Of a stretch of DNA of 64,000 bases, positions 369-63,488 are shown one piece after another; within the stretch, counting starts at the first letter, position 1, and each line of letters opens with the position of its first letter. The notes beneath the pieces were generated by a model, which was not told where the DNA came from, made no database searches, and saw only the letters and a program-made list of their open reading frames with translations. The translations under genes were made by a program, and so were the position numbers. Source of the stretch: Callorhinchus milii (lineage: Eukaryota); the NCBI RefSeq assembly GCF_018977255.1, contig NW_024704742.1:1118001-1182000 (forward strand), in the 5' to 3' direction.

Positions 369-552
369 CTGTTCCAATAATTCCCACTCATATTTGGTGT
401 TTCCATGGACAACGGCCATGAGTTCTTCAGGTAGGAATACGTCTAAAATGGGTTTTGGAAAACTACTCCGAAATCCTTCTGCGAAAGCTTTGAAATGTTT
501 CTCGACAGACGTGTTAAAGATATAATCCACATAGGCATCGACAAACTGTTTT
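369..552 (-). CDS. Gene A exon 21
   Basis: [16 protein letters not shown]...[23 protein letters not shown]. Confidence 0.93.
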
Positions 553-3500
553 CTGAAACAGACATCAACCAAACTGGATATTCTCATGACCGTTCTGCAA
601 ATGCCTGAGCTTCCAAAATGTCAAGCCTCAAGATCATGTCCGATAGAGTTCAACGTGGAGATTGTGGGATCACCTGGGGCCAGGTGTATTTAAAATGATA
701 AATTGGAATGGATTATTATGCTTAGCTTTCCATTTCCTAACACAGCAAGTGGCTAAAATATTGCCATGACTTAATCAGGTGACGTACCATAATTTGTGAG
801 AGTGGGAATTAGTATTAGCACTAGAGAAATGGCTGTGGAAGATGGAAATGTGACGTTGGTGCAGTAAAGTGTGTTACATCCAGCTAAATTGTACAATAGC
901 ACGAAGTAAGAAAAGAAAACTCATCTAGATCAATTGCGCATTTTGCATTTGGAATCAGTTCAAGAAATCCTGGAATTGATTCCTCTGCTTGCATTTTGTA
1001 CATCAAGCGTGCCTTGCTTTGATGTTCCCTTCACCGCATGAGTTAGATTTTGAGGAGGATAGATTCACGTGCTGGAGATCACAGCGAGCACCATGAGTGG
1101 ACACTGTTTGTGCTTGTACAGCATTGTACTTGCCTGTTGTGTCCAGCATTTTTAGAAAAGGAGAGAAATAGTGAGAATTTGGGGGGAAGAAGACGGTATG
1201 TAAACCTAAACAGACCCGACACCTTCTCAAGGAGTTTTATCCCGAGGTCATTTTCAGACTAAAAGCTCCACTTCTCTCACAATCACACAACTTAAGGTGG
1301 AGTGCAATGCAAGACAAATGACCAGTCTGGGGATATTATTTTTTTTTACATAAAATAACCTTGAAATTACCTGTTGTGCTTTTCCACTGGGATATTTTGA
1401 CCATTTGGAATAAGTTCATGCTGAATTTTGAAATGATCATCTGTTTCTTTGCATATCTTGAATAAGGTAAAGAATGGCAATAAAGCAATAGTCAGTATAC
1501 CTCTGATTAAAACAACGAGTACGCTATATTACAAAGGTGCTTGGGTGGCAATATTGTGGAAGAATTTGACAGTAAATAGCGATGACCCAAACTGTATTGG
1601 TTTCCGAATTTATTATTTGCATTTCCCAATGCCCTTCTCTTTTCAAACAACACCATGGGGATTTTTAACATCCACCTGAACAAGCAGGTGATGGGCTCTC
1701 GGTTTAATTTCTCATCTGAAGGACGGCACCTCCAACAATGCACCACACTCCTCGCACTGCATTGGAGCTTCAGCCTAGAGCCCGAGACTCATATGAGTTT
1801 CAAGTCCAGGTATGATGAGACTTGAACCCACAACCTTCTGACTCAGAAGTGAGAGGGCTATTAGTTGGGTGTCATCTTTACACGTTGGAAATGTGCCTGA
1901 GGACGATATATCACCAAGTTGGAGCGTGTAGATGGTGGAAAGGAGAGGGCAAAGGATGGAGCAGGAGAAACATTGCATGTGATTGTGTGGGTATGGAACG
2001 AGAAGCCATTACAGATTTTCTCTCTTCTGTTAGGCAGAAAATGTGGTAATCGGTGAAATGAATTGCAGCGAGGAGAAAATATTACAGTAGATATGAGGAA
2101 AGGAAGCAAGTGGCAATGCGATTTTGAAAACAAGTGAATAATAGGATCGTTACATAGGTAAACATACTACGAAATATTGACCGTAGACTTCTTCGACATT
2201 ACTGGACTCATCATGTAAAAGGTCATCGAGATTCCTGGAACAAAATGAGAAGATTATGAAATTATGAAAATGTGTCCAGAATATTTTTGTTTAAAAAGTT
2301 GCATTTAACTGCATGCTTTTGAAAGCGCAAACAATGCAAATACCAGTGATTTATTATTATTTGTTGATTAGAATAAGAATAAAATGGTAATGGCTTGACA
2401 AAATACCTGATGAACAAAATAAAAACCTCCTGCAAAATGTAGCTATTTTAGGAAGCTCAAACATACTAAATAACATCCATTCATTCATATGTAACTTGGC
2501 AGTGTTATTGGTCTGACTGACCCATCACTGAAAGCCACTTAGAAATTACCTTTACAGAGTGATTTAAACTGTAATAACCTAATAATAATCATAATAATAA
2601 TAATCCTTGCCTTTCAAATTGAGAGCATGTCTCAAAGTGCTTCACAGGGTTTTATTGTAAAGTGTATTTTATGGCAATTGTAAATACTGGGGTCAAATGT
2701 GTGGTGCGTGTGTTGTTTAGTGAACAGAAAACTCAAAAAGAGAGTATTCCATTATTTAGTTATAATAATCCTTGCATTTGATATAACGCCTTATTTCGTC
2801 TTCGAGACGTCTCAAAGCGCTTCACAGAATATACTGTAAAGCGAATTGACTGTATATTTTGTGGGCAAAATGAAGCAGCCAATTACGCACAGCAGCGTCC
2901 CACAAACAGTCACGGATTGAGCGACAAAATTATTATCGCTATTACATTTTAAAGGGTTTGTTAGCCCCCAGAAAAGCGATCCGTCAATCGGCTTACAGCC
3001 TGGTTTCTAGTTACTGTTGGGTAAACACAGGAGTGTGGTGTAAGGAAACATTCTGCCCTGCCGGTAATCAAACCCAGGTCCTCTCACTTGCGAGGCGAGT
3101 GCTCTAACCACTGAGCTACAGGACTCCAGTATTGACATCGGATGAGGACCGATTGGATTTTTCAAAGAGCTTGGCAGCATTCAGTTTCACACGTGGATAA
3201 TGACTTTGCGATATACTGAAAGGGACTCAGCACCTGCGGAACTATACCCTAACAGAGGGAAAATTGAGAGGGGGAATTTATGTGAAAGACTAGTTCTGTT
3301 TTGTTCTTTCTTTTGTTTTTATTTCCACTCACCTCCCTTCTGTTTTGGACAATTCCTTCAGGTCTTTTATTGTTGGTTGCACATTGAGTAGTTTTTTGTA
3401 CAGGGCCAATGGGAAGTGAAAGTTTGCCACAAAACCGTGGTGCAGAGCGATTCCGCAGAGAATTCCCACCAGGCGAAACACTCCTGGTAACTTGGGCTCC

Positions 3501-6500
3501 TGTTTTAAAACAGAGAGTGTAAATCCTCCTCCACAAAATCTCAGCAGAAATTTGTACAGCGCTTTCCTTTCATTATATCTTGATGATGAGGTTTCCCAGT
3601 GTTAGCGACTGGCACACACCTCCTCGACATCCCCCCTCTCCCTTGCTTGGCAAACAACCGCATCCCTGTAAAGCGATGCGAGTTATCCTCTGTGAAGTGC
3701 ACTATATAAGTACAAGTACAATGTGACACATTGCAATGGCCTCGTTCACATGAATCTATGACGTGTGGTGGTTTATATGTGCTGGCACACGGTGTTTATG
3801 TTTTTCTCCAATCAAATGGCAACAAGTCATTCATGAATAAGTGAGAAACAAGGGCAGAAACACTACGAGGGTTGAGCCAAATACAAGAGGACTCTTGCAA
3901 TTAGCAACTTGGGCAATACTGTAGGAGCTACATAGAATGTATACAGCGCAGGAGGAATGCCATTCAGCCCGTCGTGTCTGTGCTGAGGCTAGCTCCTGCA
4001 CCAGAACACTTGTCTCTAAGTTAGAAAGCTTTGGTTATGAGTGAAGCCCAATTTCAAGACTTGATCTTATTGCCTCGGCTGGCTTTGGGTCACAGGTGGA
4101 TTGTTGGAGGTTCTATTGTGCGGATGAGACATTAAAATCAAAGTCTGCATATTCAGATGGACAGTGAGAATAAATACCGTGACACTGTAGAAAGAGACAT
4201 AAATTGTTCATAATGTGCCGGTAACAATCCTCCAGATTAATTGTTCATTCGCTCTTCATTGTTTGTGTCTACTCCAACAACAGCTTATATTTATGAAGCA
4301 ACCTTCACACAGGCTCACATCTCGGAGCGCTTAACAACGGTGTACTTTGATTTTGAGCTGGGGAGAAACAAGAGGTGACCCTAGGCAAGGTTGAAGAGGA
4401 AAATCTTCATATTAAATCTGAAGATAGGCTTCCAAGGCAGAAGGACAGAGATTCGGTGCATAGTGGCTGAAAGCACAGCAGCTGATGGTGGAGCAGATGG
4501 GATCAAGGAATAATAATAATCCTTGCATTTGATATAGCGCCTCATCACATCATTGAGACGTCACACAGGTGAGAGACAATGTTGTGCTCCTCTCATCTTC
4601 ACCTACCCACTCAGGGAACCAAATTAGCCTGGAGTCTTCATAGTGCTTGAATATGTTCTGATGGACACAAAGTTCCTTGGTAATGACAGAGAAAAATTCC
4701 TGGGAAACCCCACCATAATCCTCGGCAAATTCACCTTCAAATATGACCTGAAACAACAGCAATGAATAGATCAGGATCAGAAGTCCAATCTTTTATATGT
4801 GCTTATTTATTTCCTGTTAAACCCTTCGATCACTCATTGAAAGTGAAGAAGTCAGATTGAAGTGTATGTTGCTGATTTTATATATGAGATGATTGTGTGT
4901 GTTTGTTGGGGGGATGGGGAGAGCTGAGTGAATTGGGACCTTACTACTGATGAGTATTCCTCTCTTTAATAATAATGATAATAATCCTTGCACTTGATAT
5001 AGCACCTTATCAAGTTGTTCAAACGTCTCAAAGCGCTTCACAGTAAAGTGGATTAGACTGTGTGTTTTGTGGGCCAAACGTGGCAGCCAATTGCACACAG
5101 CAGTGCCCCAAAACAGTTGTGGATTGAGTAACCAAAATGTTTGTGAGGGGAGGGATTATTACCCCCAGAAAGCCAATCTGCCAATCTAACAACTGGGTTC
5201 TTACTTACTGCTAAGTAATCAAAGGCATAAGAAAACTTGCCTAGGTTTTACCCAGCCGGGAATTAAAAGCACATCTTCTCACTTGCAAGGCTTGTATATA
5301 TATATAAAAAAAATATACTAGCTGTACCCATTGCAGCTTTGCTTCAACCAAAGGATTCAATATGGAATGGAGATTGACAAGCAGACACACATTTTATCCT
5401 TATCTATATTCATCTGGGGGGACTCCTGTGGGAGGACTCCTTTTGCGAGGATTCATTGGGAGGACTCGGCACTTTAAAAATGTAATTTTGATACTGTTGC
5501 CGTGGTTTAACTTCGTCTGTGTTCTTTAGTTTGTTCCCGCCGCCGCTTGGCTGCGTGCGTGCTCTGTGACACAAGATGCCACAGCGCCACAGTTATCACT
5601 TTCTGATGTTCTTGTGGGTCCACGTCTCAAACTTACAAATCTGTGCACAACCTTGGGGTCCATTTTGATTCACTGGTCTCCTTCCTACCACACATTCGGT
5701 CCCTGACCAGGACCGCTTTCCTCCACCTCTGCCACATTGCCCACCTCTGATCCTACCTCACCCCAAATATGTTTTCCCACAAAAACACAGTTCCTGCACT
5801 TTACAATATGTTCTGTGAAGTGTTTTTGAGACATCCTCCTGACATGAAAGGTGTTTGATCAAATGCAAGAATCATTATTATGTAAATGAATCATCTTTTT
5901 GAAGGTTTAAGACAACTATCTTCTCAATCTTCAAAGTTGCAACAAATGGAAAAACCAACAAACACACTAACTATCAATCTAAGTCCATCAGTTAATATGG
6001 AAATCAATACAGATTCAGTGCAACTCAAAATAATTGTAAATTCAAACAATTATTTTGAGCGTTCAAGTAATGCAGCATTCTTATTTTTATGAACCGACTG
6101 CAAATCTGCATACACAGGCAAAGGAATAGCTTTCTACCTGAAGTTGCTGTTGAAGTGTTGTTTTATCAAACATCATTAATTGTTTCAAAGTGTCTTGAAT
6201 AATCATCGACCTTCTAACCACCAACAAGCATTGATTAGGCTCGTTCTCAGGCAAATTCCTTATGAACTGGAATAAATATTGCAATAGTGTTAGACAATAA
6301 GATCATATAATAATAACAATAATGATGATAACAATGATACTACATATTACTAATAATAATAATATGTGGGAAGAGAGTAGTTCTTCCAACTATCATCATG
6401 CGGCAAATCAGTGCTGATCAAATTCATTTATTGAGCGATACTTACCGCGCAGAGATTGTTGAAAGTTTCAACTTTCGTTTCCATGTTAATGATGCAAGGA

Positions 6501-9500
6501 TACTTAATTAAATCCAGAACTGAGTCCTGAGGACACAAAAGATATTTTAAAATTCTAATGGGCAGTCGTTGATTGGCATCTTTGATTTTCAGTCTCACTA
6601 AAATGATCACATGAAAAACTCCCATGAAAATAGTCCAATCCATATTAATACAGTAGAGCAAATCTGCTGTACATCAGGACACCAGATTGCCACATGCGTT
6701 TCTTCCACAAAATATGCAGTCAATTCACTTTATAGTATATTCCGTGAAGCGCTTTGAGAAATCTCGAAGACGTGATAAGCCGCTATATCAAATGGTAGGA
6801 TTATTATTTATACATTACTATATGCAAGTTTACCTGCACCTGAGCTGAAATCACAGAATAAAAACAGTGCTGAAATGTCAGAGAAAATCTTTAATTGTGG
6901 TTGTATCTTAACCCTTGGCATGATTTTCCCCGAGTGCGCTTTTAGACCAGCAGCCCAAGGTAGAGAGATCTGATGAAAGTACAGGGTAGAGGGAAAGAAA
7001 GGTGGAGAGACACCATCTGAGAAAGAGAGGCACAGAAAGAGAGAAAAAATTTCAGCGAGAGAGAGAGAGAGAGAGAGACCCAAGGCTTCTGCTCTGAAAT
7101 ATTGTAAATCAAGACTGGGAAAAGTGGGAATTTCACATTTCTTTGCTGAATAAGCTGCCATAAGGTAATTATAAAACTGAAACTTTGAAGATTTAAAGCA
7201 GATCTAATGGCTGCAATTCAAACAACTAAATCTATTGCCTCGATCAAACGTAAAGAAAGAGGCTGATCGGAAAAGCAAAGAGGCGTGAGAAAACAGTTCT
7301 GGAGGTGGGACGGTTGTTCGGCCTCACAGACGCACGTACAATTGCAAACTTTGCCCTTGTTCTCGGTGTCACCAGCGATGTGCTTAACCAGAGATAGTTA
7401 TCACTGTCGCAAGTTGCCCACTCTTAGTACAAAATGAGTACATTACAATTTTAAGCGCAGAAAATGCACTTGGATGTGCGTGCTGCCAAACACCCACTCT
7501 CTCTGTCACCATCCTCACTGTCAACGTTCATGAACTCAGGCCCTTAGAGTGGGACTGCTGCATGTCAGATCATCAACCTTCCTCTGTTGGATGGAAAAGA
7601 TGGCACCTCTGACAACGCAGCACTCTCGGAGTCCTGCCCTCGAGTGTCAACCCAGTCGAGCAGCTGAATTCCTGATGTGGGGCTTGAACCCACAACCTGC
7701 CAGAGGCCAGAGCCCTACCAACTGAGCTAAACTGACACCTTAATAAGCGTATAGATACGTTAATTTTTTTCCCAGTTTTAATTGACACGAATTTAGGCGC
7801 GACATCAAATGCAAGGATCGTTATTATTGTTATTAAAATCAACTCTCGCCTCAGTCTAGCTCCAGTTATGGGATGACACAGTAATGAATTTCAAAGGAAA
7901 TAGTATAACCCTAAAACTAAGAATCGTATCAGAATTTTCTTACAATGTGAAGAGTTGAGATTCCGAAGACTTCTGCGAGAGCAATGTAGAAATTGCTCTC
8001 TGCAACTTTAAGATCAGCAAAACAATTCACCTGTGGACAGAATTTATAAATGTTTCACCATGCTGTTTGTTAAATCAATGTCTAAAAATAAAGTAGGTTA
8101 ATGTTTCAGGGTTAGCTATTTATCAAAGGATTCGACATGTGCCTTTTGCCTTTTTGTATAGGGATGAGCCTATGTATAACATTGGCCACTCGCAACAGGG
8201 CTGTTTGTGGAACATTACTGTGTGTAAATTGGCTGCTGCGTTCGCCTACAAATGAGCCTCAGTGAAATCTGTAGTACGCAGTAAGAATGAGCAGATTGGT
8301 CCAGTACAGGTGCCAGTCACTTTGTGAACTGCAAAGATGCTGTTTAAAGGGACGTTGCATTCCCCTGAAAACTGAGGAGGGAAAGTTTGTGAACACTACT
8401 TTGACAATACTTTGCATTGCCAAAGAATCTTCAGTCACATGAATGAATCATTTCATTCTTAAAGAATACAAACGCTGGTGTCTTCCCATTGCAACGTTAA
8501 GCTATTTTTTTTTAAAACAACCCTTAAAGCATCCTGACTTCAACTTCCCATTAATGTATTCTAGCTCTGTCTGCTTTGGCCCACAAAATACGCAGTCTAT
8601 TCACTTTACAATATATTCTGTAAAGCGCTTTGAGACACTTCAACGACTTGATAAGGCGCTATATTAAATGCAAGGATTATTTTTATTATTATTGTTTTCC
8701 TTCAACATAAATACATTTCTGGTGTATGTCCTATAATTGCTCTTCGCAAAACGTTTCGGCTTTCTGTCCTCAAGAGGTGTTTATTCCGAACCTACCTCAT
8801 AGAGTTTCTGCAGAATCCTTAAACAATTGTGCAGATCTTCAGAAAATTTTGTTTGCTTCTGAAATGTCTTTTGGAGCAAGTGTTGACACACAGTTTTGAA
8901 CAACATCACGAGTTTCTTGAAGAAATAATTATTGAGGTTATTCCACAGAGATTCTGAAGAACAGATAGTGAAGGAGAGATTGGAATAGGTGAATAGACGT
9001 GTTTAGATCCACCTGGCTAACACAAAATATTTTCCAAACTTCTGAGGGTTTCATTTATCATTTGGTTGAAGTTTTTCGTGAACGCTGAGGTGAATGAAGT
9101 AGATATGGCAGCCAATAACCTACAGTAAGACTCACATAAGTCATATCAGTTCGGACCAGAAGATTTAATATGACTTACGCAAAGTATACGTTAAGGCAAA
9201 CTTGCATAAATCGTATCATATTAAAAGTCAGATTTTAGTTTGTATTCAGTACTGTATACTGGTTGGTGATATCAAGGCAAGGTTTCTGTGCCATGTTTAA
9301 CCCATGCATATTAAAGTAACGGTAACTCATTCTTTTTTCCATATACCAGTACCTCACAATCAAATTCAGAGGCAATAACCCTTCTTTTCCATTTCAGGAT
9401 ATGCCTTGCAAAATTGGAGGATCTGGTGATAGGCCCTTGTCACTAATTTGTGTTTATTTGGGGTGATCTGCATTGCCTGATGGCATGATGGCTGCTCAAA

Positions 9501-12500
9501 ACCTCATCTTCCCCAGCTGTTTAGTGTTCTGTCCTGCACGTGTGGTCCTTCAGCATCGCAACAGTAATCGGGTACCGCCGTGATGGGTCAGGACTTAGGT
9601 TCCCGTGATTATCTCACATGCAAGTGCAAGTACTGCAAGTGCTACTTCAAGGCCAGTAAGTGCGCGTGCAGTGATGGGTCCCCTTAACTTCTCCTTGAGA
9701 TCAGGCATCCCCGACCCCTCGCTCACCACATGATCAAGTCACGCTCTTTTCTCTCTCTATGCCCCCCCCCACCACCCCACATCCCCCTCTCCACTACCAC
9801 CCACGGTCGGTGATGTTGATGTCACATTCCCAGGAGGGAGGACGCAGAAAGCATTGGGGGTGCAGATGTCCTGTGATCCGTTTGAAGCTGGGGTGGGAAT
9901 CAAAGTTTTGACCCAGCAGCCGTTAGGAAGCGTGAAAGCTATATACGCGTTTTTGCCTCAGTCATACACGAGGTAAACAAAGATCACAAGTGACATTAGG
10001 TTCCTCTGTTCTCAGGTTCCCGACTTTACATTTTGGCATTTAACTTTGGTAAAGGCAAAGTTGCAGAAATCCAAACTAACACGAGTTCTGACCCCTGCTC
10101 AGAGTAGAATGATCAGGACTATGGATGGAGTTAGCGTCTTGAAATATCTACAAATCTTACCAAGGATTTTCAGTTTGCTTTTCTCGAGTGACAGAATAGT
10201 TCTGCTCAGAAGGCTTGTCAGTTTCACAACATCCTTCTGCTCTTTCACCACCTCTATGAGCTCTGGCAGAATAAGGTAGACTCGGAGAGTTTCCACACAA
10301 ACATGGGACTCAAGTAATGAAGGCATCAGGTTTTTCTTTACTGTATCAGTGACCTGAAAAGTAAAATTACAAACAAAAAAGCGGAATTAAGTGTAGATCC
10401 GATTTATAACGCAAATAACCATCAGAACAAAATCAACGAGCAATCTGGAAATACATGTAATCTCAGAATCTAATGGCAGAAAGTGAAGCTCCCAAGCATT
10501 TACTATAGTTTGAGTTCCCAATCTCAAGCAGGCTGACTGGTGAGTTACACAGCAGAGGGGAAACACTTGCGCAGAGAGAAGAGCAAATCAAGATCAGTGG
10601 CCAGAGTCAACATCATGTTGTGAACCTATTATTGCCTGTTGCAAAACACAGAGGCTCATTCACCTTCTTGATCAAACAGGGCAGAGTAGATTGGATGGGG
10701 GGGTGATGGGGACGGGCGGGGGGATGACTAAAAAAGAGGAAGTGACTTACACAATGGTGTGTGTTTGGGTGGGTGGGAATCTAATACAATTATAAGATGG
10801 TGTATAAAGCAGGTCTATCAAATGCCAACCAATATTACAACAGGGTATGATCATTCCTCAACACTTACACATTCACTCTCATGCGCACAGAAAGCCAAAA
10901 CATCAGTTCGTGCAGGAAGCCAAAATGTCTGACTTCCAGGGCGTTAAATTCATGCCCAGCCTGCGGGAAGTGATGTCAGCAGCAACAACCAAATCACTGG
11001 CAAACATGGCCCATCAATGTCCCACAAACAGCTATCAAATAAATGAGCGATTTTATGAGGTGGTATTTGGCCAGGACACCGGGAGAAACTCCGTGCACCT
11101 TTCAAACCGTGCCTTGGGATCTCAGTTTAATATCTCATCCGAAGGACAACAACTCCAGAGATACAGCGTTCCCCAGAACCGCACTGGAGTTGTGGGGCTT
11201 ACCAGCTGGCCGGTGAGGGTCCATGGGTCGATGTGTCAGGGCGTCATTTCCCGTGCTTCGGTGTGGTAAGTGTGGGAGGCTAGTCGAGTGGCGTTAAGAG
11301 TTAGGAGGTGATTAATATGTACAAAGAAATCCTAAGTTTGATTGGAAAGTGATTGAGACTCGGGTGAATGTATGACTTAAGTAATTATATGATCTATAAA
11401 GATAAGAGTTATGCCAGATTCACTGTATGGTCACCTCTTGTAACACCGTGACGTTTCTCTGCAACTTCTCAAACCACAGATGCATGGCAGACATATCCAC
11501 TCCTGACACTTCATTGCTCGTTTTGAAATGGTTGTCTTTTCTGTTTTAAAAGTGAAACATTTTCAAAAAAAAAAAAGTTAGCGTCCACAATAAACCTTCC
11601 TGGCTCCAGTTTATGTTTGTCAAGCACCTGGTACTAACACTGCTCTCACCGTAGGTAAACAGCAGGGTCAACACCATAGGTAAACAGCGTCAATCGCTAA
11701 ACTTCTAGTGTAATGCAAATAACAACACCATTCAGGCAATCTAAGACTGTTAGGTTAGTGCTGAGTTGTTGGGATTTTTTGTGCTGTGTACTTGTGATCA
11801 TGAGGAACTGGGTTGAGATTGCTTCATATCCTTATAGCCAGCAGACAGGTCATTTACATTTCATCATCCCAGATTTGGACCCAAACCCAAGAGGCAAAAG
11901 GATGCTATTTCAACCAAAGTCACCACACACTCTCCTCCACCATTCCCAATGCAACATCATCAGTATTGGGCTTGGGCTTACGTGGTTTCCAAGAAGCTTC
12001 CATTGAGAGATGCAGCAGAAGAGAAAACGTGATTGATTTCCCTGTAAATAATACAAGTGCAAGCCGTTAAACATCATCGTTGTTATTCTTCCGAAATAAT
12101 TATGGATTTTGATTCACTTTGTTGCTTTAATTAAACGCAATAGTATTTCAAAATGCAAAACGCAAATTAAAAATCGGATTCAAATTTCTTCCTCAGGAAT
12201 GGAATTCTTTATTCTCCAATGACAAAACCATGAGAAAAACTTCATCCAAATCAGTAATATACCTTCTGTGGTTTAAGGATCAATTTGGGGCAGTATTGGT
12301 TTGGGCTATTAAAAGCCAGAAGGAATTATTATTTCTGAGAGTGATGCTGATTCTAATCAAATAGAACAAAATAAATCCTCCATCATCTTCAGAGAACATG
12401 TTCTCTCCGCAAGATGTTAATAATCCTTAATAATCCTAGCATTTGATAAAGCGCCATATCACTTCTACGAGACGTCTCAAAGTGCTTCACAGGATATACT

Positions 12501-45976: not shown

Positions 45977-46229
45977 GGAATTTCCCTAACTCTGACCCCG
46001 CCTTGGGGTTTGCTGATATTGAAGCCCAAGCAAGCAATAAAACACGAACGGCTAGAACGGGAGGAATATTCCCTGAAGATGTCACCCCACTGATTCGCCA
46101 CCAGGATTTAAGTAGTTTTAGATAACAGCTGAAGGTGTGTTTTTCACGGGAAACGATTCCGATTGAAAGGCTCGAAGAGAGTTTCATTTTCTCAGTTATT
46201 GATCAGGAATTACAGCAGTTTCAATTTCC
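45977..46229. promoter_or_regulatory. Candidate NF-kB/ISRE/STAT enhancer
   Basis: GGAATTTCCC 45977-45986; GGAATATTCCC 46063-46073; TTCACGGGAA 46143-46152; AGTTTCATTTTCT 46180-46192; AGTTTCAATTTCC 46217-46229. Confidence 0.6.
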
Positions 46230-46949: not shown

Positions 46950-47240
46950 ACGATGCTGCATTGTCAGAGGTGCCATGAGTCGGATGAGACGTTAAACCAT
47001 GGTCCTGTCTACCTGTTCGTGCGCATGTTAGAGATCCCAAGGCACTATTGGAAAAGAGAAGGGAGTTTCTCTCTCCCACTGTCCTGGCCAACAATCCCTC
47101 AAATAAAATTGGTCATTCACTTCATAACCATTTGTGGGATATTGCTGTGTGCAGATTGGGTACCGTATTCACCCACAAAGCACTTTGAGACGTTCACTCA
47201 ATGTGAAAGGCGCTATACCAAATGTAAGGATTATTATTAT
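46950..47240 (+). mobile_element. Deu-domain SINE
   Basis: GGATGAGACGTTAAACC...GATCCCAAGGCACTA...GTCCTGGCCAAC. Confidence 0.75.
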
Positions 47241-47551
47241 ACGGCAAGTTCCTTTTTAATACTTGAAACCACTCCTTAGACCCTAATGTGGTTTCTTTTT
47301 ATCTATAGGACACTTTTGGAAAAATCAACTTCACTGTTTGGTAAAGGGGGAAGTTCTGACTAATACAAAACAATACCATGTGTAAGAAAAGCTGCAATGT
47401 TACACGGTTCATACTTTTCATTTATAAACACTGCAGGGCCTGTATTGTGTTTACTCTGCTCATGTCTGACGCAATCAACTACTGCAGCAAAGTACTGTAC
47501 GTTTGAAATGTTATATCAAGTAAGTCAGTTTGAAATTCAGTTCTTTGTTTT

Positions 47552-47564
47552 AGTTTCGGTTTCC
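47552..47564. promoter_or_regulatory. Distal ISRE
   Basis: AGTTTCGGTTTCC, full match to the ISRE consensus. Confidence 0.55.
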
Positions 47565-50917: not shown

Positions 50918-51129
50918 TCATGTTAAGCCAAAACCACGGGTACATTTAATAGCTATCACCAGTTTCTCTCTGAGAGATTTGACACTGGTGTACGCGGGAA
51001 GGAAGAGGGTAAGAAAGCACGTGTTTGCCACTGGAAAGTGATTTTCAGTCATTGACCACAACGAGCTGATGGATATTTTCAAGCTGCTCATCCCGGACAC
51101 AGGAATGCGATCGGTTCCGACGAGAAACC
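50918..51129 (-). CDS. Gene C last exon (23)
   Basis: FLVGTDRIP...[16 protein letters not shown]...GFGLT*. Confidence 0.94.
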
Positions 51130-54100: not shown

Positions 54101-57100
54101 TTGAGGCCTGCGATTGAAGGGGGGCAATCCCAAAATGTGGGTCCCCTATAATGTTTTTGTTGAAGATCTGCCTCAATAATGGTGGATCAGTGGGAGCTGT
54201 GAGAGTGAGTGCTCATAATGACAGCTCAGTGAAAGCAGAAGCTCAGAGGGAAAAAAAAACAGGGGCGAAGCTTGTTTCTGAGGCTTTAAAGACCTCGATA
54301 CCCCTGCCCTCAGGTCATATAGCTTTCTGAAACAAAACCTGTATCATGTCGTTCAGACGTCCCAAAGCGCTTCACGGATTATATTGTGAAGTGGATTAAC
54401 TGTATTTTGTGGCAAAATGCAGCAGTCAATTGAGCGACCAAATTATTTTTTGAGCCCCGGAAAGCGATCCGCCAATCGATTAGCATCCCGGTTGCTACTT
54501 ACTGCTAAGGTAAATAGAGGCGTGTGGAGTAAACAAACTTGACTAAACTTTCACCCTGACCATTTGCCCACTGCACCTGTGTGGTTCTTTGAAAGAGCCA
54601 TCCATTTGATCCCATTCTCGTGCCTTTACCACAGACCTTTTTATAGTTTGCACAGAATGTAGTTAAAATTAAAATGAATCTTTGGGATTAATTATTATAT
54701 TGTACCCTTTACTCAGCAAAGTTTGCCCTAAAAGAAATTAAGTTGTACTTACAGAAAAATCAAGAAGAAGATTTTCCTCCAGGTTATATTTGTAGTCCAA
54801 AATGTATTGCAGAGACCTAGTAGCAAACGATAATGCAAATAAGATCTTGCGATGCATAATTCAGCAAAATAGGAGTGGGAAGAAGGAGGAAAGGTGAGGA
54901 GAAGAGGAAAGACGGGTTGGGAGGTGGATTTGATCATTTTTGAATGTACGCTAAACTTGCTGATGGTTAAATACAACCAACAGGTTGACTTGTGGATAAG
55001 CACACTGTATTTCCTGCTTTCCACTGACACACAGGACCTCTGCTGAACGAGCAGTGATAACCGCAACACAGAGCAAGGGAGAACCGCGATTATGAAACTT
55101 CGGAGATACCAGTGCGTCGCGGCCGATAGATTTCGGGTACGAAAATTTGAAGGACATGTTTAGTTTTCTTGTGCTTCGTTTGCCCGATTGGGTGCTAAAT
55201 TTCAATAGAAATCATTGTGACTGTTATAGGAAAAGGCTCATCGCAACTGTACCAGTTCATCCGGTAATTGCTATCTGTTCAGTCTCATTTTCTTGCCTTT
55301 TCCCCCCGCGCTCGCTTTTCAAAAGTGACTGCGGATTCTGGTTCAACATTGTTTTTTTTAGTAGAGCTCCATATCCTAATAATCCTTGTACAAAACAAAT
55401 TATCCACATCTCTTCCTTTGTTTCTTTGGGAATCTTAAATGTGTGTCCTCTGGTTACCGACTCACTGAACAGTGGAAAATGTCTCCCTATTCGTTTCGTC
55501 AAAAATGTTCAAAATTTGGATTAAGTCTAAATCGGGTCTCCTGTCAACCTTCTCCGATCACGTGAAAATACCTATACCCTCTGTATGACATTGGTGTCCT
55601 TCCTAAAGTAGTGAGCTCAGGACTGGAAAGTATAGGCATACCGTGGCCTAACCCGTGATTTACGCAGCTTTAGCATTATTTCTTTGCTTTGGTATTTTAG
55701 CCCCTATATATAAAACCTAGGACCCTATTAGCTTTACTTACAGCTTTGTGGCCTTGTCCTCTGCCTTTGATAAATCTCCATATATATCTAGTGCTGGGTT
55801 TCAAGTGGCTATGATCCAATGATTACCTATTGGCGTACGGTCCCTTTCATCCAACCAGGGACATGAGCTGATGGTTCGGCCCAGAATCAACCTGTCACAT
55901 AAACTTACTTGTGCAAGACACGATCCACCTCAAGCAGATCCTCCAAAATGGGCTTCACGTTCAGCAACTTCTTGAACAATGCAAGTGGGAACGGGATGTA
56001 GACCACACCGAAATTATACAAAACAAGGCCGCAGACTACTCCCAGCAGGAAGTAGTTCTCCATGGGCCCTGTCACCTGCAGATGGGTAGAAATTAACAGT
56101 GAAATGGGTCACCAATTTGCAAAAGTGAGCTACAGAAACAACTTGCATTTATATAGGGCTCTTCACGTGAGTAGCGTCTCAGAGCACTTAACAGCGGTGT
56201 GGTTTGACGCTGAGCTGAAAAGGGAGGGGAGGTGACTGAAGGCATGGATTGAAGACGAAAGTCTTCAGGTGTAATTCGAAGATGGGCAAAGAGGGGCAAG
56301 ATGAAGGGAGTGAGGCAAGGAATTCAAATTACTCAGTACCACACAACTGTAATCACAACTGTGAATGGTGAGCAATAACTAGTCAAGTTGTGTTACAACA
56401 ATAACAACAAATTACATGTGTGTAGCGCCTTTAATTGGAAGCACAACCCAAGACACTGGACAATCAGTGTTTCGGACCCGAGCTCGGGGTCGGGGAGGGT
56501 GGAGGGCAATGGGGGAAGGAGGGTGACCGAAGGCACAGTCGAAGAGGAGGGTCTTGAGACGGGTCCTGAAGGAGGCCAGGGAGGGGACGAGGCAGAGGGA
56601 CTGTGGGATGGAGTTCCAGAGAGGCAGAAGGCCCGCTCGCCAATGGTGGGGGACATTAAGCAGGCTGGAGCCCGCTGAGTGGAGGGAACGATCAGGATGA
56701 TAGGGGGTTAGGAGGTCGCAGAGGTAGGGGGGAGCAAGGCCATGGAGGGCTTTGAAGGTGAGGACCAGGATCTTGAACTGTATCCTCTGCGTGATGGGAA
56801 GCCGGTGGAGTCGGGCGAGGATGGGGGTGATAGGGTTGTGGAGCCTGGCGCGGGAGAGGACACGGGCTGCAGAGTTCTGGATGATCTGCAGCCTATGGAA
56901 GGAGGAGTTGCAACAACAATGCAGTGTGGTGAATGGCTTTATACAGCAAACAGTGAAGCTGATAACATTTTCATGACCATTAAAAATCTCTCACCTGTGA
57001 AGGAAACCAGATTCCGGTAGACTGTTCGGTAGAAATAAACATTCCTGAATCTGGATGAATCAACTCTTCAAAAAGTAGAAGGAAGAATTCCCTGCTTATA

Positions 57101-60100
57101 GCTCCATAATCCACACCTGCTTCTCCTTTAAATTCCACCTAAGTAATTTTTTAAAAAATGTAAAAGATATGTCTGGAAAATCACTTACGCAAACGGGGGG
57201 ATCAAAATACCGGTACCTTGGCACTATTGGCGCTTCCGAGGAATATTTCTGGTCAAATTCCATGAGTGTTCAGTTTCTGTGGAAATGTCTGTTTGGAGAG
57301 GCGAATAAGGGAAACCAACCAAACACTGCATTTACCAAATTCCAAGGTTACAGTTGGTTTCCAAGAGCCACAACCTGTTTGTGCCGAGCAATGGGCAAAC
57401 TGTAAGTGGCTCCAAGTGGTGAACAGTTGTGAAAATGTGCAATAATGAAGCTATGCCCTATAGCTGAGGGAGAGCGTAGATGTATTAGTTCAGGAAGCAA
57501 TACAAGATATGTAAATTTGTTTACACCAAACCCATGCAGTATTTATTTAGCTCCGCTACAACTCTCACAATGATGTCCCTCACTTCACGTTACTTGTCAG
57601 TGAAGTAGAAAATTTGGACAATGACGTATGTTAGTGTAGTATAAAATCAAGACTGTGCTTGGGGTAAAATGTCTAGCAAACGTGGAACTGTATCCAGGAG
57701 AGACGAAAATGAATGATAAGTGGCCAAAGAAGTTTTTCGATATTTTCAGATCTGTTGAAAGTGTTTACTGCGATTGTTTGCGGAGCTCAATAAAGATTTG
57801 AGAAAACAATGTTGCAGCTATGTCCATTGGTAATAATTTTACGAAAGGGATTTGTTCACCATTAATTTCTTCCGGAGGTCACGGTCATCCACATTTTTCA
57901 ACCATTGAAATGTGTCAGCAACCAGGGTTTTGCGATCAACCTTCAGCTTCAATTCGTGGGATGTGGGTAATGTGGGAAACGAAGGATTGCCCTCTGAAAA
58001 GACAGCTTGAAAATGTGCCTCCTAAACAAAAGACATTAAAATATTAGATTACAGCAAGACATTTAATACATCAGGGTCAAAGATGCAACGTGATTAACAC
58101 GGCTATCACCGTCAACAATTGCCATTTTACCAAAATGTGTGACCTTTAACTGTCGACATGTTTAATCATCACTGATGCTAACACGGGATAAAAAAGTAAA
58201 CTTTTTAACCACGTGATATGTGAACATAGTGAAAATGTTCAAGCATTAGTTTGAGATATACCAGTGAAAGTAATTTGTGCCAGAAGAACAAATTGTCACA
58301 TTGCTAGTTCTGTTCAGGCCCTGCTCTGCTCTAAGCCAAGGGGGAGGAAGACAACGAAACAGATTCACTGCCAAGCAGTTCCATGTTAACCTGTGTTATT
58401 TTAGCAAATCAGCCAGGTGTGTGACACATGCGGAAACCCAGGACAATTCTTCAAGAGCATCCAAACCCAACTGAGAGTTTTGCAGATGTATGCCACCTAC
58501 GCATGAAAGTTCCCTGTGTCTGAAACGGAAACCACATACTCTCCCTGGAGGGATGGTCTCCGCTTACCTAAGCATCGGGTAACCATCTACCAAAGCAGTA
58601 CGTTATCCTCCTTGGCAGAGGAGGTAAGCAGTGTCTCCTTGGGCTGAACCAACTCAAAGGTGACATGTTTGGCAACAGAATGCCAGAATCCACCCAGCCC
58701 TCCATGCGATATCAATAGTTCAGTTCTTTAGCCACGCAGGTCCGCAGTATTCCGGGGCATTGCTGATGACAGCACAGCCCAGCCTGGCCGATCGGCAGGA
58801 CTTGGAAGGGCAGACCAGTCAATTGGGGTCCGAGAATCACCACACTCATGCTCGGGTTCACTGGGCAAGCCAAAGCCCTAACAGGTAGGGTGGTTCTAGC
58901 TGGACATGCAGTGGGAAGGCTTGCCAGACAGTGATATCAATGGCAAGCCTCGGCTTGGCTCGTTGGATTCCAGCAGCTACCCAGGAGTATTGGGATTATC
59001 TGACATCGTGTAATTCTCATTTAGTGGCGTTCCCTCAGAGAGGGAACTTGCACGACACAGAGAAGGATCTACACAGAAGCCACTTAGTACACCGTGCGCT
59101 TTGTCATAACCCGGGTATACATTTAGGGGTGAGGAGCGTTGCAATATCAACAATATATCTCTGGAATTTCCATGTGTAGTTGGGATGCATGGAATTCTCA
59201 GCGTGGCTTGGATAATCTTATAATAATAATAATCCTTGCATTTGATATAGCGCTTTTCACATCTTCTCGACGTCTCAAAGCGCTTCACAGATTAGACTGC
59301 AAAGTGAATTGACCGTATATTTGTGAGCGAAACGCGGCAGCCAATTGCGCACAGCAATGTCCCACAAACAGTCGTGGATTAAAAATGACCAATTTATTAT
59401 TGTTTTGTGTTTTTTCGAGGGATTATTATTAGGCTCTGTGTGGAGTAAGGAAACTTGCCCAAGGTTTCGCCCGTGGAACTGCCTGGAATTGAACTCGGCG
59501 GAGGGATCGAGGGACAGAGTTCCAGAGTTTCGGAGAGTAATGGCTGAAGGCACGGCCACCGATGGTAGAGCGGACAGGTTGAGGGACGAACGGGGCCGGA
59601 GCCAACCGAGCGGAGGCAGCGGGTTGGGGAGTGGGGTTGGGGGGGGTAAGCAAATCGGATATGTAGGGAGGTGCGAGAACATGAAGGGATTTGAAAACGA
59701 ATGAGGGGATCTTGAAATCGATCCATTCGGGAATCGGGCGCCTGGAAAGGACCGGTCGGATGGGGTTACGGAGTTTTGTGCGGGTGAGCTGAAATCACGT
59801 TGAAATATCTCAAAGCGCTTCACAACAATTACTGGTGAGTGTAGTGACTGTCTTTTTTTTTGAAGGCCTATCTTCATCCCTCCCTTTCTTGCGATGTTAT
59901 GAAATGACAGGTTTTACGTAACACAAAGCGACCTCCTCAGGTGTTACCTTAATAACACTTTAAATTTGTCCTCTGTCCAAAGCAAAAGCATTACCTGTTG
60001 ATTCAAAGCTGCAAAGGTGTGAAGTGCTTGAATCTTGGCTGACAAATTCAGAATAAATGGATAGTGGCAAAAGATAACCAGAAATTCCTCCTTGTTCACT

Positions 60101-63100
60101 TCATCGGGCTGTAATTTAAGAATACGATTGGAATCCATTTGATTTCTTCTTTGAAGAGGTTAAATCAGCTGAACTGTACAGACAAGTGTATCACGTTCCA
60201 GAAATATGTCCTATATTTCAATAGTCGTGCTTCACATTAACTCATCACAAGGCTCGAAGACACAGCCATTGGCAGAAGTTGTAAAATGCCACGTTTGTCC
60301 GCCAAACAAATAAAATCTGTTGTCGAATTTACTGACCAGTTTCCACAATATGTGTTCACATTGTGAGAAGCAGCTAATTTACCATCTGTTACAAATACAG
60401 TAGTTCTCGAATCTCACTGATTAAACTCCAGTTGAATCACTTGGTATTACAGGGGAGAAATCACACCCGGGTCTAGATTCACTCTCGTCATGTAGCATCC
60501 ACAATTGCTCAAAGCATCAGCAAATTGCTTTAACTTTGAAGTGGTGTTTTTTCTGTAGTTCTTAAAGGAAACTTATAAAAACCCAACTTCAAAATGATGG
60601 CTGTATTTAAGGCTTTGCCATGTCTGGATGATCCAAATTGCAGTATAAGGAATGTACAACAACTGGACTGTAAAGGTTTTTCAGCATCAGAAAGTTTGCC
60701 AGGAATCTTACCGAGCGATTGCAGAATTTCATATTTAAAACATCCTGATGCAGGTTGACCCAACAACACAGGTTATCGATGTAGAACTTGTTCAGCGGAA
60801 TAGTCTCCTGGGCCTTGACATTTGCCTAAAATGAATTTTACCATCATATACAAAAAACATATGATACATTCCAGAATTTCATAGAAAACGTGTACAAATG
60901 ACATAATTATACTTAGCTCCTCTGATATTTACCTTGTATAATAGTTTCAGAACGTTCAGGACATTTTGTAAATCCTGCTGGGACTCCTTAAACTGGGCAT
61001 AGTAATATAATACAAACACCACCATGCCCTTAAACTTCTGGACCAGATTGTTCAAGAATGATGCTTTCAATAAGGACCACCACTTTCCTATTAAGCAAAG
61101 AAAAATCCTTGTTACTTGCTCCGGTATACATGGGCAGCTGTGGTTTGCTCAGGGTAATGTCAATAAGGGAATCTCTCCCGGTGTCCTGGCCACATATCCT
61201 CCGATTAAATTGGTCATTCCCCACTTGGCTGTTTGTTGGAACTTGTTGTGTGCAATTGGCAGCTGCGTTCACCCACGACATACACAGTCACTATATTTTA
61301 CAGAAAAATCCGTGAAGTGCTTTGAGACGCTTAGACTTGAGAGTTTCAAATGCAAGATTGGTTTATTGTTAACATGAACAGTTACATGCTATGTTTGTAT
61401 TCATGATCAGCAAGGAAAATGTTTTCGCATCGAAAGCAAACCTGCTTGTGGGGACGCTGCAGTGCGCTGCTGTGCTGCCGCATTTCACCCACAAAAATCG
61501 AAGATGTGATATGGCGCTATATCAAATGCGAGGATTGCTATCATTATAACATTTGTCCTGAGTTTCCATCCCTACATCGGCCGCAATTATTGCTGCTCTT
61601 ACCCAGAATTGTGGATGAAGACTGATTCAGTTTTGTTATAGCCGCTGCAAAAGGTAGAACCAGATTCCGCACGTTTCTCTCTCGCCACATTACTGGGCAC
61701 TCTGACAGAATCAGGTAGACCAGCAATACTTCTTTGTTGGTACTAAGCGTCTTGAGGCTTGGAATCAGCTTTGATTGTAAGCTCAACGTTATCTGAAAAA
61801 GAGAAAAAAATAAATGAATGAGGCTGATAAGATACTCGCGACTGTAAAGGACTGCACCAAATATACTCTCTCTATCCCACGAAGCACCTTATATACACCT
61901 CAACAAGACCCTTCGAAAGGATCTCCTTAATAAGGCTGAAGGACCCTAGTTTGACGAAGGTATTCACTTTACACACTGTGATAGGTGTTCAAGCTAAACG
62001 CAGTAATCGGATGTTTTGTCAAGGATGTTTTGGCCACTCAACAGATAACTGACTGTGAATATTTACCCTTTCGGAAATCCAGGTCTTTGTGGTAAGTTTC
62101 TCAAATACGTTCCTGGCTGTTTCAACATCAACACTCAGACAGTCACTTCCAATTCTGCTATGATCGCCATTACTAAAAAGTAACAAAGGAACACATCAAT
62201 ATTTTCGAATTCAGCGTTAACAGAGGACAATGCGATTCCAGAAAAAAAATCACCCGCTCAATGACCTCATCCCCTTCATTTCAGTGCCCATCACATTCAT
62301 CGCTGACCTGTGTTTTCTCAAACAATTCAATAATAGGGAACCTCTCATTTCCCACATCTCCAAAAATTATGATATTTGCAATGAGCTGCATTTTTCGGTA
62401 ATATTATCCGGCTAAAGTGATGGCTTCCAAACCGCATTGATACAAACCTAATAGCTGCTTCCCCGATGACACGGGGTGGTGGGGGTGGGGGGGGTGGGGG
62501 GGAAGGGTGTGAAAGCACCACTTGACGTGGTATGTTTTGGGTTAGGTCACTTGGTCTGTGACGAGTTACACAGAGAAAAATGTGTCATTCGGGATTTGGG
62601 GATGGGAGAAGAAAGGAAGTAAATGATCCAAGGTTCCTGTTCCCGACCAATGTTCAGCAGTGTGCTTTGTCTTCCGCAATCGATTGCCTTCCAGCACTGA
62701 CTTCCCGGGCTCACAAATGCACAAGGGTTATTTGGGTCAGAGAACTGCCAGAGCCGACGGAACTGTACCACAGCGTACGTCACTTGCTTCACGAGGGGGA
62801 GGAAATGAGACAGCAAAACGTTTACAGTGAATCAGCTTAGTATGACCGACATGCTAATCTATCAACTGATCTTTAAAGCAGGGCTCCTGGTCTTTACTGC
62901 TGGCAGAAGAGAGACAACGATGGGAAACCATTGCCGCTGGCTCGAAAATGCGGCTTCCAAACAGGTAGGGACCTGGGAAAACTCTCGGCCTGGATTGAAG
63001 TTTACGGGTTGGTTCCTGAAGCTGTTCTGGGAAGAGCAGGGGACACCCACAGTCAGTGACATTGCTGGAGCAGCCTTTAGCAGGCAGGCGGGGCGGGCGG

Positions 63101-63488
63101 GAGCCTTCTGTCGAAAAAATCACTTCCTTTTATTGAAAAATACACAGTATTTTCCCATGGCTGCCTTGTCTGAAATCTGCTTAACAGCCTCCTTTAATCC
63201 GCAACGAGCAGCTTCCAGGAAACTAAAGTTCAAAAACCCAAATTCTGCATGATCTCAAATTTTAAGTCGCGAGGGCCACGAGAAATTCCAGGCCCTGGTG
63301 GTTGTCTAAGCACGGGTGGAAGAGATAGCAATGCATATCGGACCAGAATATCATACGGTCTGCTGCTGTATTTTACAGTTGATTACAATTGATTTAGTAT
63401 CTCAGTTTACGGTTCCACTCACCTTTGCTTCAGAAAACTTGCAATGAGACACGAGCAGGACGAAAATATTAAATCAATCTCACTCTCG
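50918..63488 (-). CDS. Gene C: HERC5/HERC6-like E3 ligase, 3' part (5' RCC1 exons outside window)
   Basis: 14 GT-AG exons in frame. Motifs recalled from HERC5/6: [50 protein letters not shown]. Catalytic Cys in FPVANTC (51017-51019), C-terminus GFGLT*. Confidence 0.9.
51380..51685 (+). mobile_element. SINE
   Basis: Same family body and tail. Confidence 0.75.
51975..52570 (-). mobile_element. Two tandem SINE copies
   Basis: Two tails (about 51980 and 52252), tRNA head near 52510-52570. Confidence 0.8.
52601..52703 (-). CDS. Gene C exon (22)
   Basis: [31 protein letters not shown]. Confidence 0.93.
53124..53307 (-). CDS. Gene C exon (21)
   Basis: [16 protein letters not shown]...FKRGFYKVC. 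Confidence 0.93.
53832..53902 (-). CDS. Gene C exon (20)
   Basis: [23 protein letters not shown]. Confidence 0.92.
54753..54816 (-). CDS. Gene C exon (19)
   Basis: [21 protein letters not shown]. Confidence 0.9.
55400..55760 (-). mobile_element. CR1-type LINE fragment
   Basis: [16 protein letters not shown], typical CR1 ORF2 C-terminal region. Confidence 0.6.
55909..56075 (-). CDS. Gene C exon (18)
   Basis: [14 protein letters not shown]...[11 protein letters not shown]. Confidence 0.93.
56400..56900 (-). mobile_element. L2-type LINE 3' fragment
   Basis: Same family as 43525-43980. Confidence 0.85.
56995..57138 (-). CDS. Gene C exon (17)
   Basis: [19 protein letters not shown]. Confidence 0.93.
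57860..58021 (-). CDS. Gene C exon (16)
   Basis: [18 protein letters not shown]...DLRKKLM. Confidence 0.88.
58410..59220. mobile_element. Non-autonomous element with long terminal inverted repeats (MITE-like)
   Basis: Left end ...atccaaacccaactgagag... mirrored by ...ggaattctcagcgtggcttggat at the right; related pieces at about 18930-19050, 20990-21170, 21595-21700, 30620-30800, 31120-31290, 35020-35270, 45215-45890. Confidence 0.6.
59220..59500 (-). mobile_element. SINE
   Basis: Very similar to the copy at 16930-17215. Confidence 0.8.
59995..60108 (-). CDS. Gene C exon (15)
   Basis: [18 protein letters not shown]. Confidence 0.9.
60712..60825 (-). CDS. Gene C exon (14)
   Basis: [19 protein letters not shown]. 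Confidence 0.88.
60933..61087 (-). CDS. Gene C exon (13)
   Basis: [19 protein letters not shown]. Confidence 0.9.
61603..61792 (-). CDS. Gene C exon (12)
   Basis: [16 protein letters not shown]. Confidence 0.92.
62067..62172 (-). CDS. Gene C exon (11)
   Basis: [23 protein letters not shown]. Confidence 0.88.
63423..63488 (-). CDS. Gene C exon (equivalent to exon 10)
   Basis: [19 protein letters not shown]; acceptor could alternatively be at 63482. Confidence 0.85.

What the first reader, a model, noticed from the sequence alone, without database searches (positions are those of the whole stretch)
369..63488. Tandem cluster of three small HERC ligases: one HERC5/6-like gene and two divergent paralogs
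Seen: three intact RLD-HECT genes head-to-tail on the minus strand with matching exon phases. Known: HERC3/5/6 are clustered in mammals, HERC5/6 are interferon-induced ISG15 ligases, and non-mammalian vertebrates have an additional HERC7 group. Inference: gene C is a HERC5/6 orthologue in a probable chondrichthyan, which would bear on when the antiviral HERC lineage arose. A and B appear to be a lineage-specific expansion (HERC7-like or a new subfamily) that automated annotation would probably label just HERC3/4-like.
Basis: partly seen in the sequence, partly recalled or inferred. Interest (0 to 1): 0.75.

Follow-up and report, generated by a model that had tools for sequence, protein, structure and literature searches.

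The report
Elephant shark antiviral HERC ligase cluster
This is the elephant shark's cluster of interferon-type ubiquitin ligase genes, whose families are already known, but two of its very old duplicates have recently copied parts of their target-binding front end and untranslated leader from each other while keeping different catalytic back ends.

Summary
The window is the small-HERC locus of Callorhinchus milii. Three head-to-tail RLD-HECT genes are real, with open frames and matching exon phases, but only B is whole here. A lacks its last 104 residues and C its first 415. Trees place C with HERC5/6 and A and B with HERC7 (100/100); AU tests reject HERC3 or HERC4. That part is published: Li 2023 lists elephant shark HERC3, HERC5/6 and HERC7. 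Not found in my searches: A and B are not a chimaera-specific pair. They head two subfamilies present across sharks and rays, so they split before chimaeras and elasmobranchs did. Yet their exons 1 (with 5' UTR), 4, 6 and 7 are 93-98% identical, while the other exons are 44-80% identical and introns unrelated. This is recent exon-limited gene conversion, not seen in 12 elasmobranch pairs. Both promoters carry ISRE-like motifs. Likely function: interferon-induced ubiquitin/ISG15 ligases sharing much of their RCC1 propeller with different HECT outputs. C lacks the residues that make human HERC5 ISG15-exclusive. Function is inferred, not tested.

The parts
50918..63488 (-). Gene C, HERC5/6 orthologue: last 14 coding exons (spacer + HECT, aa 416-1031 of XP_042192337.1); RLD exons and promoter lie outside the window
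   Evidence: trees
24621..44767 (-). Gene B, HERC7 (B-type): complete, 24 coding exons, 1018 aa (XP_007900726.2); catalytic Cys in the last exon
   Evidence: spliced contig
23882..24620 (-). 3' UTR of B, at least this far
   Evidence: X1 record 1
369..21953 (-). Gene A, HERC7 (A-type): first 21 coding exons, 900 of 1004 aa (XP_007900727.1); last 104 residues with the catalytic Cys outside the window
21735..22201 (-). Converted block in A: 5' UTR + coding exon 1 + 14 intron bases, near-identical to 44549-45015
44549..45015 (-). Converted block in B: 5' UTR + coding exon 1
16449..16670 (-). A exon 4, 98% identical to B exon 4; 0 synonymous, 4 non-synonymous differences
   Evidence: DNA-like contig
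40741..40962 (-). B exon 4 (converted)
15557..15687 (-). A exon 6, 93% identical to B exon 6 (39417-39547)
14153..14307 (-). A exon 7, 94% identical to B exon 7 (38567-38721)
22265..22333 (.). Three ISRE-like motifs 312-380 bases upstream of A's ATG
45173..45184 (.). ISRE-like motif about 410 bases upstream of B's ATG, inside a ~48-base block shared with A's promoter
46180..47563 (.). Three further ISRE-like motifs 1.4-2.8 kb upstream of B (46180, 46217, 47552)
31817..31879 (-). B exon 15, 63 bases, with no counterpart in A or C

Best explanation
SHOWN: this is the C. milii small-HERC cluster in the order HERC5/6 (C), HERC7 B-type (B), HERC7 A-type (A). A and B duplicated in the ancestor of cartilaginous fishes; in the chimaera lineage, gene conversion has recently homogenised their 5' UTR and RLD exons 1, 4, 6 and 7, leaving exons 2-3, the spacer and most of the HECT divergent. 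INFERRED from known families: interferon signalling acts on the ISRE-like motifs and induces A and B (about 0.7). The RCC1 propeller binds targets, and the HECT cysteine takes ubiquitin or ISG15 from an E2 and passes it on (about 0.9 for ligase activity). By analogy with carp and zebrafish HERC7, A and B ubiquitinate interferon-pathway or viral proteins, probably damping the response (about 0.5). C is an antiviral ligase that is probably not ISG15-exclusive (about 0.55). Conversion gives A and B a largely shared front end, including the blade-1 region that sets antiviral activity in human HERC5/6, on two different catalytic back ends. Whether selection keeps this is open (about 0.35).
For: Whole-protein trees: C with shark, coelacanth, lungfish and tetrapod HERC6-type rows 100/100; A and B with gar herc56.4, catfish, char, lungfish, turtle and caecilian rows 100/100 (46 rows, mixture model, 19 rows). 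AU rejects C or A/B with HERC3 or HERC4 (p 3e-9 to 1e-5). On 558 non-converted columns, A groups with 12 A-type and B with 12 B-type elasmobranch proteins (both 100/99); A+B rejected, p 1.5e-37. On 236 columns of exons 1, 4, 6 and 7, A+B are sisters 100/100; A with A-type rejected (p 6e-6), B with B-type rejected (p 2.5e-9). Those four exons: 11 synonymous differences in 168 sites (0.065), against 0.40-0.84 in 8 of the 9 other equal-length exons; flanking intron identity about 0.5. ISRE pattern: 8 hits against 0.56 expected, 0 of 100 shuffles; 7 of 8 lie within 2.8 kb upstream of A or B. Catalytic Cys present in all three full proteins. Fish HERC7 is an ISG that degrades STING, MAVS and IRF7 (PMC10003058).
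Against: No functional or induction data for any shark gene. The trees hold no mammalian HERC5, no zebrafish or carp HERC7 named in the papers, no chondrichthyan HERC3/HERC4 and no invertebrate root, so 'HERC7' rests on clade make-up and the gar herc56.4 label. The ISRE pattern is recalled and was fixed after I saw a looser list. AU hypotheses were named after seeing the trees. Exon 8 (pS 0.21) and exon 22 (80% identical, first 31 bases identical) are intermediate, so the converted/unconverted split is partly my choice. pN/pS in the four exons is about 0.6 (0.039/0.065), which does not show positive selection. C lacks HERC5's P988/E1015 equivalents.
Confidence: 0.8

Rival explanations
1. A and B are a recent chimaera-specific tandem duplication whose spacer and HECT diverged fast.
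For: A and B are adjacent, near-identical in four exons, and sisters (SH-aLRT 86) in the first quick tree, which used the 900-aa A.
Against: Introns unalignable and synonymous sites near saturation outside the tracts; each gene has its own elasmobranch clade; A+B rejected on unconverted columns, p 1.5e-37.
Confidence: 0.03
2. The near-identical exons are an assembly or polishing artefact.
For: Two UniProt models splice B's first 4 or 6 exons onto A, showing that software confuses these tracts.
Against: The tracts differ at 2-7% of sites and sit in unrelated introns. An older annotation holds both genes with the same exons (A same accession; B differs by R38Q and a 20-residue N-terminal extension). 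A DNA-like contig of run X9 runs from A exon 5 through intron 4 into A exon 4 with A's letters.
Confidence: 0.03
3. The conversion is real but neutral: neighbours that kept long homologous exons keep converting, with no functional meaning.
For: Exons 4, 6 and 7 are among the best-conserved RLD exons across species; pN/pS about 0.6; the elasmobranch pairs do without it.
Against: Exon 1 is poorly conserved across species (0.28-0.38) yet is converted with its non-coding leader. Shared RLDs on different HECTs recur in bat and rodent HERC5/6 (PMC7775381) and, in my data, between gar paralogues (89% over residues 200-300).
Confidence: 0.5
4. The cluster is HERC4 plus two HERC3 copies, as RefSeq names it and as Paparisto 2018 appears to describe.
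For: RefSeq names; PMC6002735 reports two HERC3 copies next to HERC4 in elephant shark. That this is the same locus is my inference.
Against: A and B are only about 40% identical to HERC4 proteins, and B 38-39% to true HERC3.
Confidence: 0.02
5. C is a dedicated ISG15 ligase like human HERC5.
For: HERC5/6 clade; Phe at Cys+1 and Cys+5, as in HERC5 F995/F999 that contact UbcH8; ISG15 is stated to have arisen in gnathostomes (PMC5381560).
Against: His/Phe/Ile at Cys-7/-6/+21 where HERC5 has Asp/Pro/Glu; replacing Pro/Glu with hydrophobic residues turns HERC5 into a ubiquitin ligase. None of the 10 other HERC5/6-clade rows has both P-6 and E+21, so the test is strict. C's promoter and the ISG15, UBA7 and UBE2L6 genes could not be examined.
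Confidence: 0.2

Closest known systems
Non-mammalian HERC5/6 (co-orthologue of mammalian HERC5 and HERC6)
   Same: C: RLD-spacer-HECT, same clade, elephant shark member already listed (PMC10003058).
   Different: Lacks HERC5's P988/E1015 ISG15-donor pocket; activity and induction untested.
HERC7 subfamily (crucian carp HERC7, zebrafish HERC7a-d, sea bass and salmon HERC7)
   Same: A and B: same architecture, clade with ray-finned, lungfish and turtle members, clustered with HERC5/6, ISRE-like promoters; elephant shark member already listed.
   Different: Two ancient chondrichthyan subfamilies rather than species-level copies; recent exon-limited conversion between them in the chimaera.
Chimeric HERC5/6 of Myotis bats and hystricognath rodents (PMC7775381)
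   Same: Paralogues share a near-identical RLD and differ in spacer and HECT; the authors suggest ongoing gene conversion.
   Different: There a young chimera made by unequal crossing-over; here paralogues older than the chimaera-shark split, with a patchwork (exons 1, 4, 6, 7 shared; 2, 3, 5 less so) that includes the 5' UTR.
HERC3 and HERC4
   Same: Domain order; the source of the RefSeq names.
   Different: Rejected as the clade of A, B or C.

Membership tests
small HERC | One N-terminal RCC1-like domain, spacer, one C-terminal HECT | tested here: met
   Pfam WD40_RLD and HECT above cut-off in the full proteins of A, B and C; only B complete in the window
small HERC | HECT catalytic cysteine near the C-terminus | tested here: met
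   for A from the RefSeq protein, outside the window
HERC5/6 (gene C) | Groups with tetrapod and mammalian HERC6/HERC5, not HERC3/4/7 | tested here: met
   (RLD and spacer+HECT separately); no mammalian HERC5 row in the set
HERC5/6 (gene C) | Synteny with HERC3 between FAM13A and PPM1K/PYURF | tested here: inconclusive
   No genome held. A fused whale shark model has a HERC3 piece before the C orthologue, and a fused sawfish model has C-type then B-type: indirect only
HERC5-type ISG15 ligase (gene C) | C-lobe D987/P988/E1015 donor-ISG15 pocket | tested here: not met
   His/Phe/Ile at the equivalent offsets from the cysteine
HERC5-type ISG15 ligase (gene C) | Interferon induction and ISGylation activity | not testable with these tools
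   promoter outside the window; no assay
HERC7 (genes A, B) | Clade of non-mammalian small HERCs distinct from HERC3, 4 and 5/6 | tested here: met
   anchored on gar herc56.4 and clade make-up, not on the zebrafish or carp accessions
HERC7 (genes A, B) | ISRE-bearing, interferon-induced promoter | tested here: inconclusive
   motifs present and enriched; induction not tested
HERC7 (genes A, B) | Degrades RLR/STING-pathway factors | not testable with these tools
   known for carp and zebrafish only (PMC10003058)
HERC3 / HERC4 | One-to-one orthology | tested here: not met
   AU p 3e-9 to 1e-5

The most novel reading that the evidence does not exclude
Small antiviral HERCs evolve as modules. Cartilaginous fishes have kept two HERC7 subfamilies since before the chimaera-shark split, and in the chimaera selection maintains gene conversion that spreads the virus-facing blade 1, other propeller blades and the interferon-driven leader across both ligases, so that one recognition surface feeds two different catalytic outputs. 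The same RLD/HECT shuffling made the bowfin/gar/anchovy and coelacanth genes that carry a HERC7 RLD on a HERC5/6-type back end, which could explain the conflicting published HERC5/6/7/9 classifications.
Probability: 0.3. Interest if true: 0.6.

Novelty: new variant of a known kind. Interest (0 to 1): 0.35.

Why it matters
The headline (HERC5/6 and HERC7 in a cartilaginous fish) is already published, so it does not move the date of the antiviral HERC lineage. It does correct the HERC4/HERC3 labels in RefSeq and the view that HERC6 arose after cartilaginous fish. The addition is evolutionary: paralogues older than the chimaera-shark split (about 400+ million years, recalled) still exchange propeller exons and their leader. 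Whole-protein trees of this family can therefore mislead, and A versus B is a natural domain-swap pair for testing whether the RLD or the spacer/HECT sets target and modifier choice.

Tried and rejected
No whole genome is held, so flanking synteny and the ISG15, UBA7 and UBE2L6 genes were not checked. An alignment of exon fragments to a full protein was garbled and not used. The 46-row mixture-model tree did not finish; it was replaced by LG+G4 on 46 rows and the mixture model on 19 rows. No RNA holder is on record as RNA; the contigs are guesses and say nothing on level or induction. Contig X5 record 4 carries one listed B letter in exon 1 and then A's letters, a 157-base gap equal to A exon 2, and A exon 3. 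The switch falls in a 31-base identical stretch, so a graph artefact and a real mosaic allele cannot be told apart; not used as evidence of ongoing conversion. B-to-A read-through splicing, implied by two UniProt models, was not seen among the 15 joints shown of 3620, and the laid stretch did not hold B's exons 1-13; inconclusive. An open frame at 45868-46452 gave no Pfam hit (0 of its frames) and no Atlas hit at 0.9 or more; 1 of 15 non-HERC frames scanned hit Pfam (reverse transcriptase). The inserts of 3 long elasmobranch A-type proteins had no match in the window. The PDB search gave only generic HECT and RCC1 relatives among the 60 of 91 shown. Four look-ups of earlier findings returned nothing. 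Positive selection in the tracts was considered and not supported.
Full report
Source and layout. An exon of the rightmost gene matched a protein at 100% whose cluster is Callorhinchus milii XP_042192337.1, 'probable HERC4'. No genome is held for the window. tblastn and manual splicing gave three minus-strand genes with GT-AG introns, open frames and matching phases. C has 14 exons (63488-50918), B 24 (44767-24621) and A 21 (21953-369). The models equal RefSeq proteins letter for letter: B 1018/1018 with XP_007900726.2, A 900/900 with XP_007900727.1 (1004 aa), C 616/616 with aa 416-1031. Only B is whole in the window. One contig of run X1 and one of X6 follow B's 3' exons at the modelled boundaries, so B is transcribed and spliced; the runs are only guessed to be RNA.

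Identity. I chose 46 rows from the 327 proteins fetched, dropping isoforms, fragments, long-insert forms, redundant HERC3/HERC4 rows and fused models except the two halves of one. With LG+G4 on 1005 columns, C lies in a clade of shark, ray, coelacanth, lungfish, amphibian, reptile and mammal HERC6-type proteins (100/100). A and B lie in a separate clade with shark and ray proteins, gar herc56.4, sturgeon, eel, catfish, char, lungfish, turtle and caecilian proteins (100/100). A site-mixture model on 19 rows agrees. AU tests on 19 rows reject C with HERC3 or HERC4 (p 2.8e-9), A/B with either (p about 1.4e-5) and one chondrichthyan clade of A, B and C (p 1.6e-58). The set has no mammalian HERC5, none of the zebrafish or carp HERC7 accessions, no shark HERC3/HERC4 and no invertebrate root.

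What is in print. PMC10003058 (passages and section 16; figures not seen) lists elephant shark under HERC3, HERC5/6 and HERC7, from Li 2022 J Immunol, which I saw only as a reference and which may say more on this locus. PMC11277259 (passages) states that HERC7 and HERC5/6 appeared in cartilaginous fish. PMC6002735 (passages) describes two HERC3 copies beside HERC4 in elephant shark and dates HERC6 after cartilaginous fish; this looks like the present cluster under RefSeq names (my inference). PMC12234341 (passages; one supplement search, gene ids only) adds HERC8 and HERC9 and places salmon HERC3/7/9 between FAM13A and PPM1K.

A and B are old. Among 49 chondrichthyan relatives, 15 score better against A and share its C-terminal pattern, and most of the rest score better against B. 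I picked one A-type and one B-type protein in each of 12 species. On 558 columns from exons 9-14, 16-21, 23 and 24 (40 rows; Heptranchias P0215 dropped), A is sister to all 12 A-type and B to all 12 B-type proteins, each 100/99; A+B is rejected at p 1.5e-37 (22 rows). The duplication thus predates the split of chimaeras from sharks and rays. The bony-vertebrate HERC7 rows fall outside both types, so the pair is co-orthologous to them. Of the 15 A-type proteins, 12 are 1355-1745 aa; the two inserts I read are low-complexity repeats before the HECT, absent from A.

Yet they share recent sequence. Exons 1, 4, 6 and 7 are 96, 98, 93 and 94% identical in DNA, the other 17 exon pairs 44-80%, and 60-base intron flanks about 0.4-0.6, except the 5' UTR at 1.00. 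The shared 5' block runs 21735-22201 in A and 44549-45015 in B. Synonymous divergence in the four exons is 11 of 168 sites; it is 0.40-0.84 in 8 of 9 other equal-length exons and 0.21 in exon 8. On these 236 columns (38 rows; three rows dropped, two of them gappy) A and B are sisters 100/100, and their own types are rejected (p 6e-6, 2.5e-9). A-type/B-type pairs within elasmobranch species show no such identity: exon 1 0.19-0.42 (10 of 12 scored), exon 4 0.53-0.73 (11 of 12), against 0.90 and 0.95 here. An older annotation with the same exons and a DNA-like contig running from A exon 5 through intron 4 into A exon 4 with A's letters argue against an assembly artefact. The reading is exon-limited gene conversion in the chimaera lineage. 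Searches for it in print (listings) found only the mammalian parallel, PMC7775381 (passages), where bat and rodent HERC5 and chimeric HERC5/6 share over 95% of the RLD. The library lacks most subscription papers.

Promoters. A recalled ISRE pattern has 8 matches against 0.56 expected (0 of 100 shuffles). Three lie 312-380 bases upstream of A's ATG, one about 410 upstream of B's, three 1.4-2.8 kb upstream of B and one in an intron of C. The pattern was fixed after a looser scan, and a motif is not proof of induction. C's promoter is outside the window.

Mechanism. All three keep the HECT cysteine. From the family, they are interferon-induced E3s that bind targets through the RCC1 propeller and spacer and transfer ubiquitin or ISG15. 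Carp HERC7 conjugates both; zebrafish HERC7c only ubiquitin, degrading STING, MAVS and IRF7 (PMC10003058). That is the best guess for A and B. For C, a preprint (10.1101/2025.09.26.678755; passages and section 10) ties HERC5's ISG15 exclusivity to D987/P988/E1015 around C994. C has His/Phe/Ile there but shares Phe at +1 and +5, so a mixed or ubiquitin-leaning ligase is more likely than a HERC5 equivalent. Blade 1 of the propeller sets antiviral activity in human HERC5/6 (PMC6002735); exon 1 (aa 1-68) covers roughly that region, is poorly conserved across species (0.28-0.38) and is converted between A and B. This suggests, but does not show, a shared recognition surface on two catalytic back ends. 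Neutral conversion is as likely: pN/pS in the tracts is about 0.6. PMC5381560 (passages) states that ISG15 emerged in gnathostomes. 10.1101/693333 and PMC13030082 (passages) added nothing on shark HERCs, and a search for shark ISG15 (listing) gave nothing usable.

Wider pattern. In 26-row partition trees, bowfin, gar and anchovy proteins and one coelacanth protein carry a HERC7-type RLD but group with HERC5/6 in spacer+HECT (98/99). One gar paralogue pair is 89% identical over residues 200-300 and 20-57% elsewhere. These are predicted proteins and could include fused models, but three ray-finned species agree.

Verdict. The ancient A/B split, the exon-limited conversion and the promoter motifs are the additions. 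Novelty: new variant of a known kind. Interest 0.35.

Noticed in passing
UniProt A0A4W3IY26 (P0223) and A0A4W3IY16 (P0309); window 44767-39417 joined to 16092-369: Two database models join B exons 1-4 or 1-6 to the rest of A, switching at converted exons; probably annotation artefacts, possibly read-through transcripts.
   Followed up: partly
Elasmobranch A-type proteins, e.g. P0128 aa ~650-1040, P0126 aa ~760-1110: Long low-complexity Thr/Gly/Asn/Asp/Ser repeat inserts before the HECT; 12 of 15 A-type proteins are 1355-1745 aa; absent from elephant shark A.
   Followed up: partly
P0003 (bowfin), P0310 (gar), P0151 (Coilia), P0139 (coelacanth): HERC7-type RLD on a HERC5/6-type spacer+HECT; may be what salmon work calls HERC9, which I could not check.
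   Followed up: partly
Heptranchias P0215 vs P0195: B-type paralogues 0.92-1.00 identical over exons 1-9 but 0.64-0.93 over exons 14-22: RLD homogenisation or a recent chimera in a shark too.
   Followed up: no
P0129 (sawfish), P0008 (whale shark), P0244 (carp), P0220 (bird): Fused gene models hint at neighbour order: HERC3 piece then HERC5/6 in whale shark, HERC5/6 then HERC7 in sawfish, HERC3 then HERC7-like in carp.
   Followed up: partly
window 38208 (B exon 8 donor): RefSeq isoform X1 adds four residues through a downstream donor.
   Followed up: no
window 522-552 and 26754-26784: First 31 bases of A exon 21 and B exon 22 identical, exon 80% overall: possibly an older conversion tract in the HECT.
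   Followed up: partly
window 17186-17256 and 3053-3125, minus strand: Rfam tRNA matches in introns of A, likely heads of tRNA-derived SINEs.
   Followed up: no
window 48969-49526: Reverse-transcriptase fragment of a LINE between C and B; about 24% of the window repeats within the window.
   Followed up: no
window 45575-45771: A 197-base imperfect palindrome (82%) upstream of B, MITE-like.
   Followed up: no
window 45868-46452, plus strand: Protein-like reading frame broken by one stop, overlapping two ISRE-like motifs; no Pfam or Atlas lead.
   Followed up: partly
window 58522-58533: ISRE-like motif in an intron of C.
   Followed up: no
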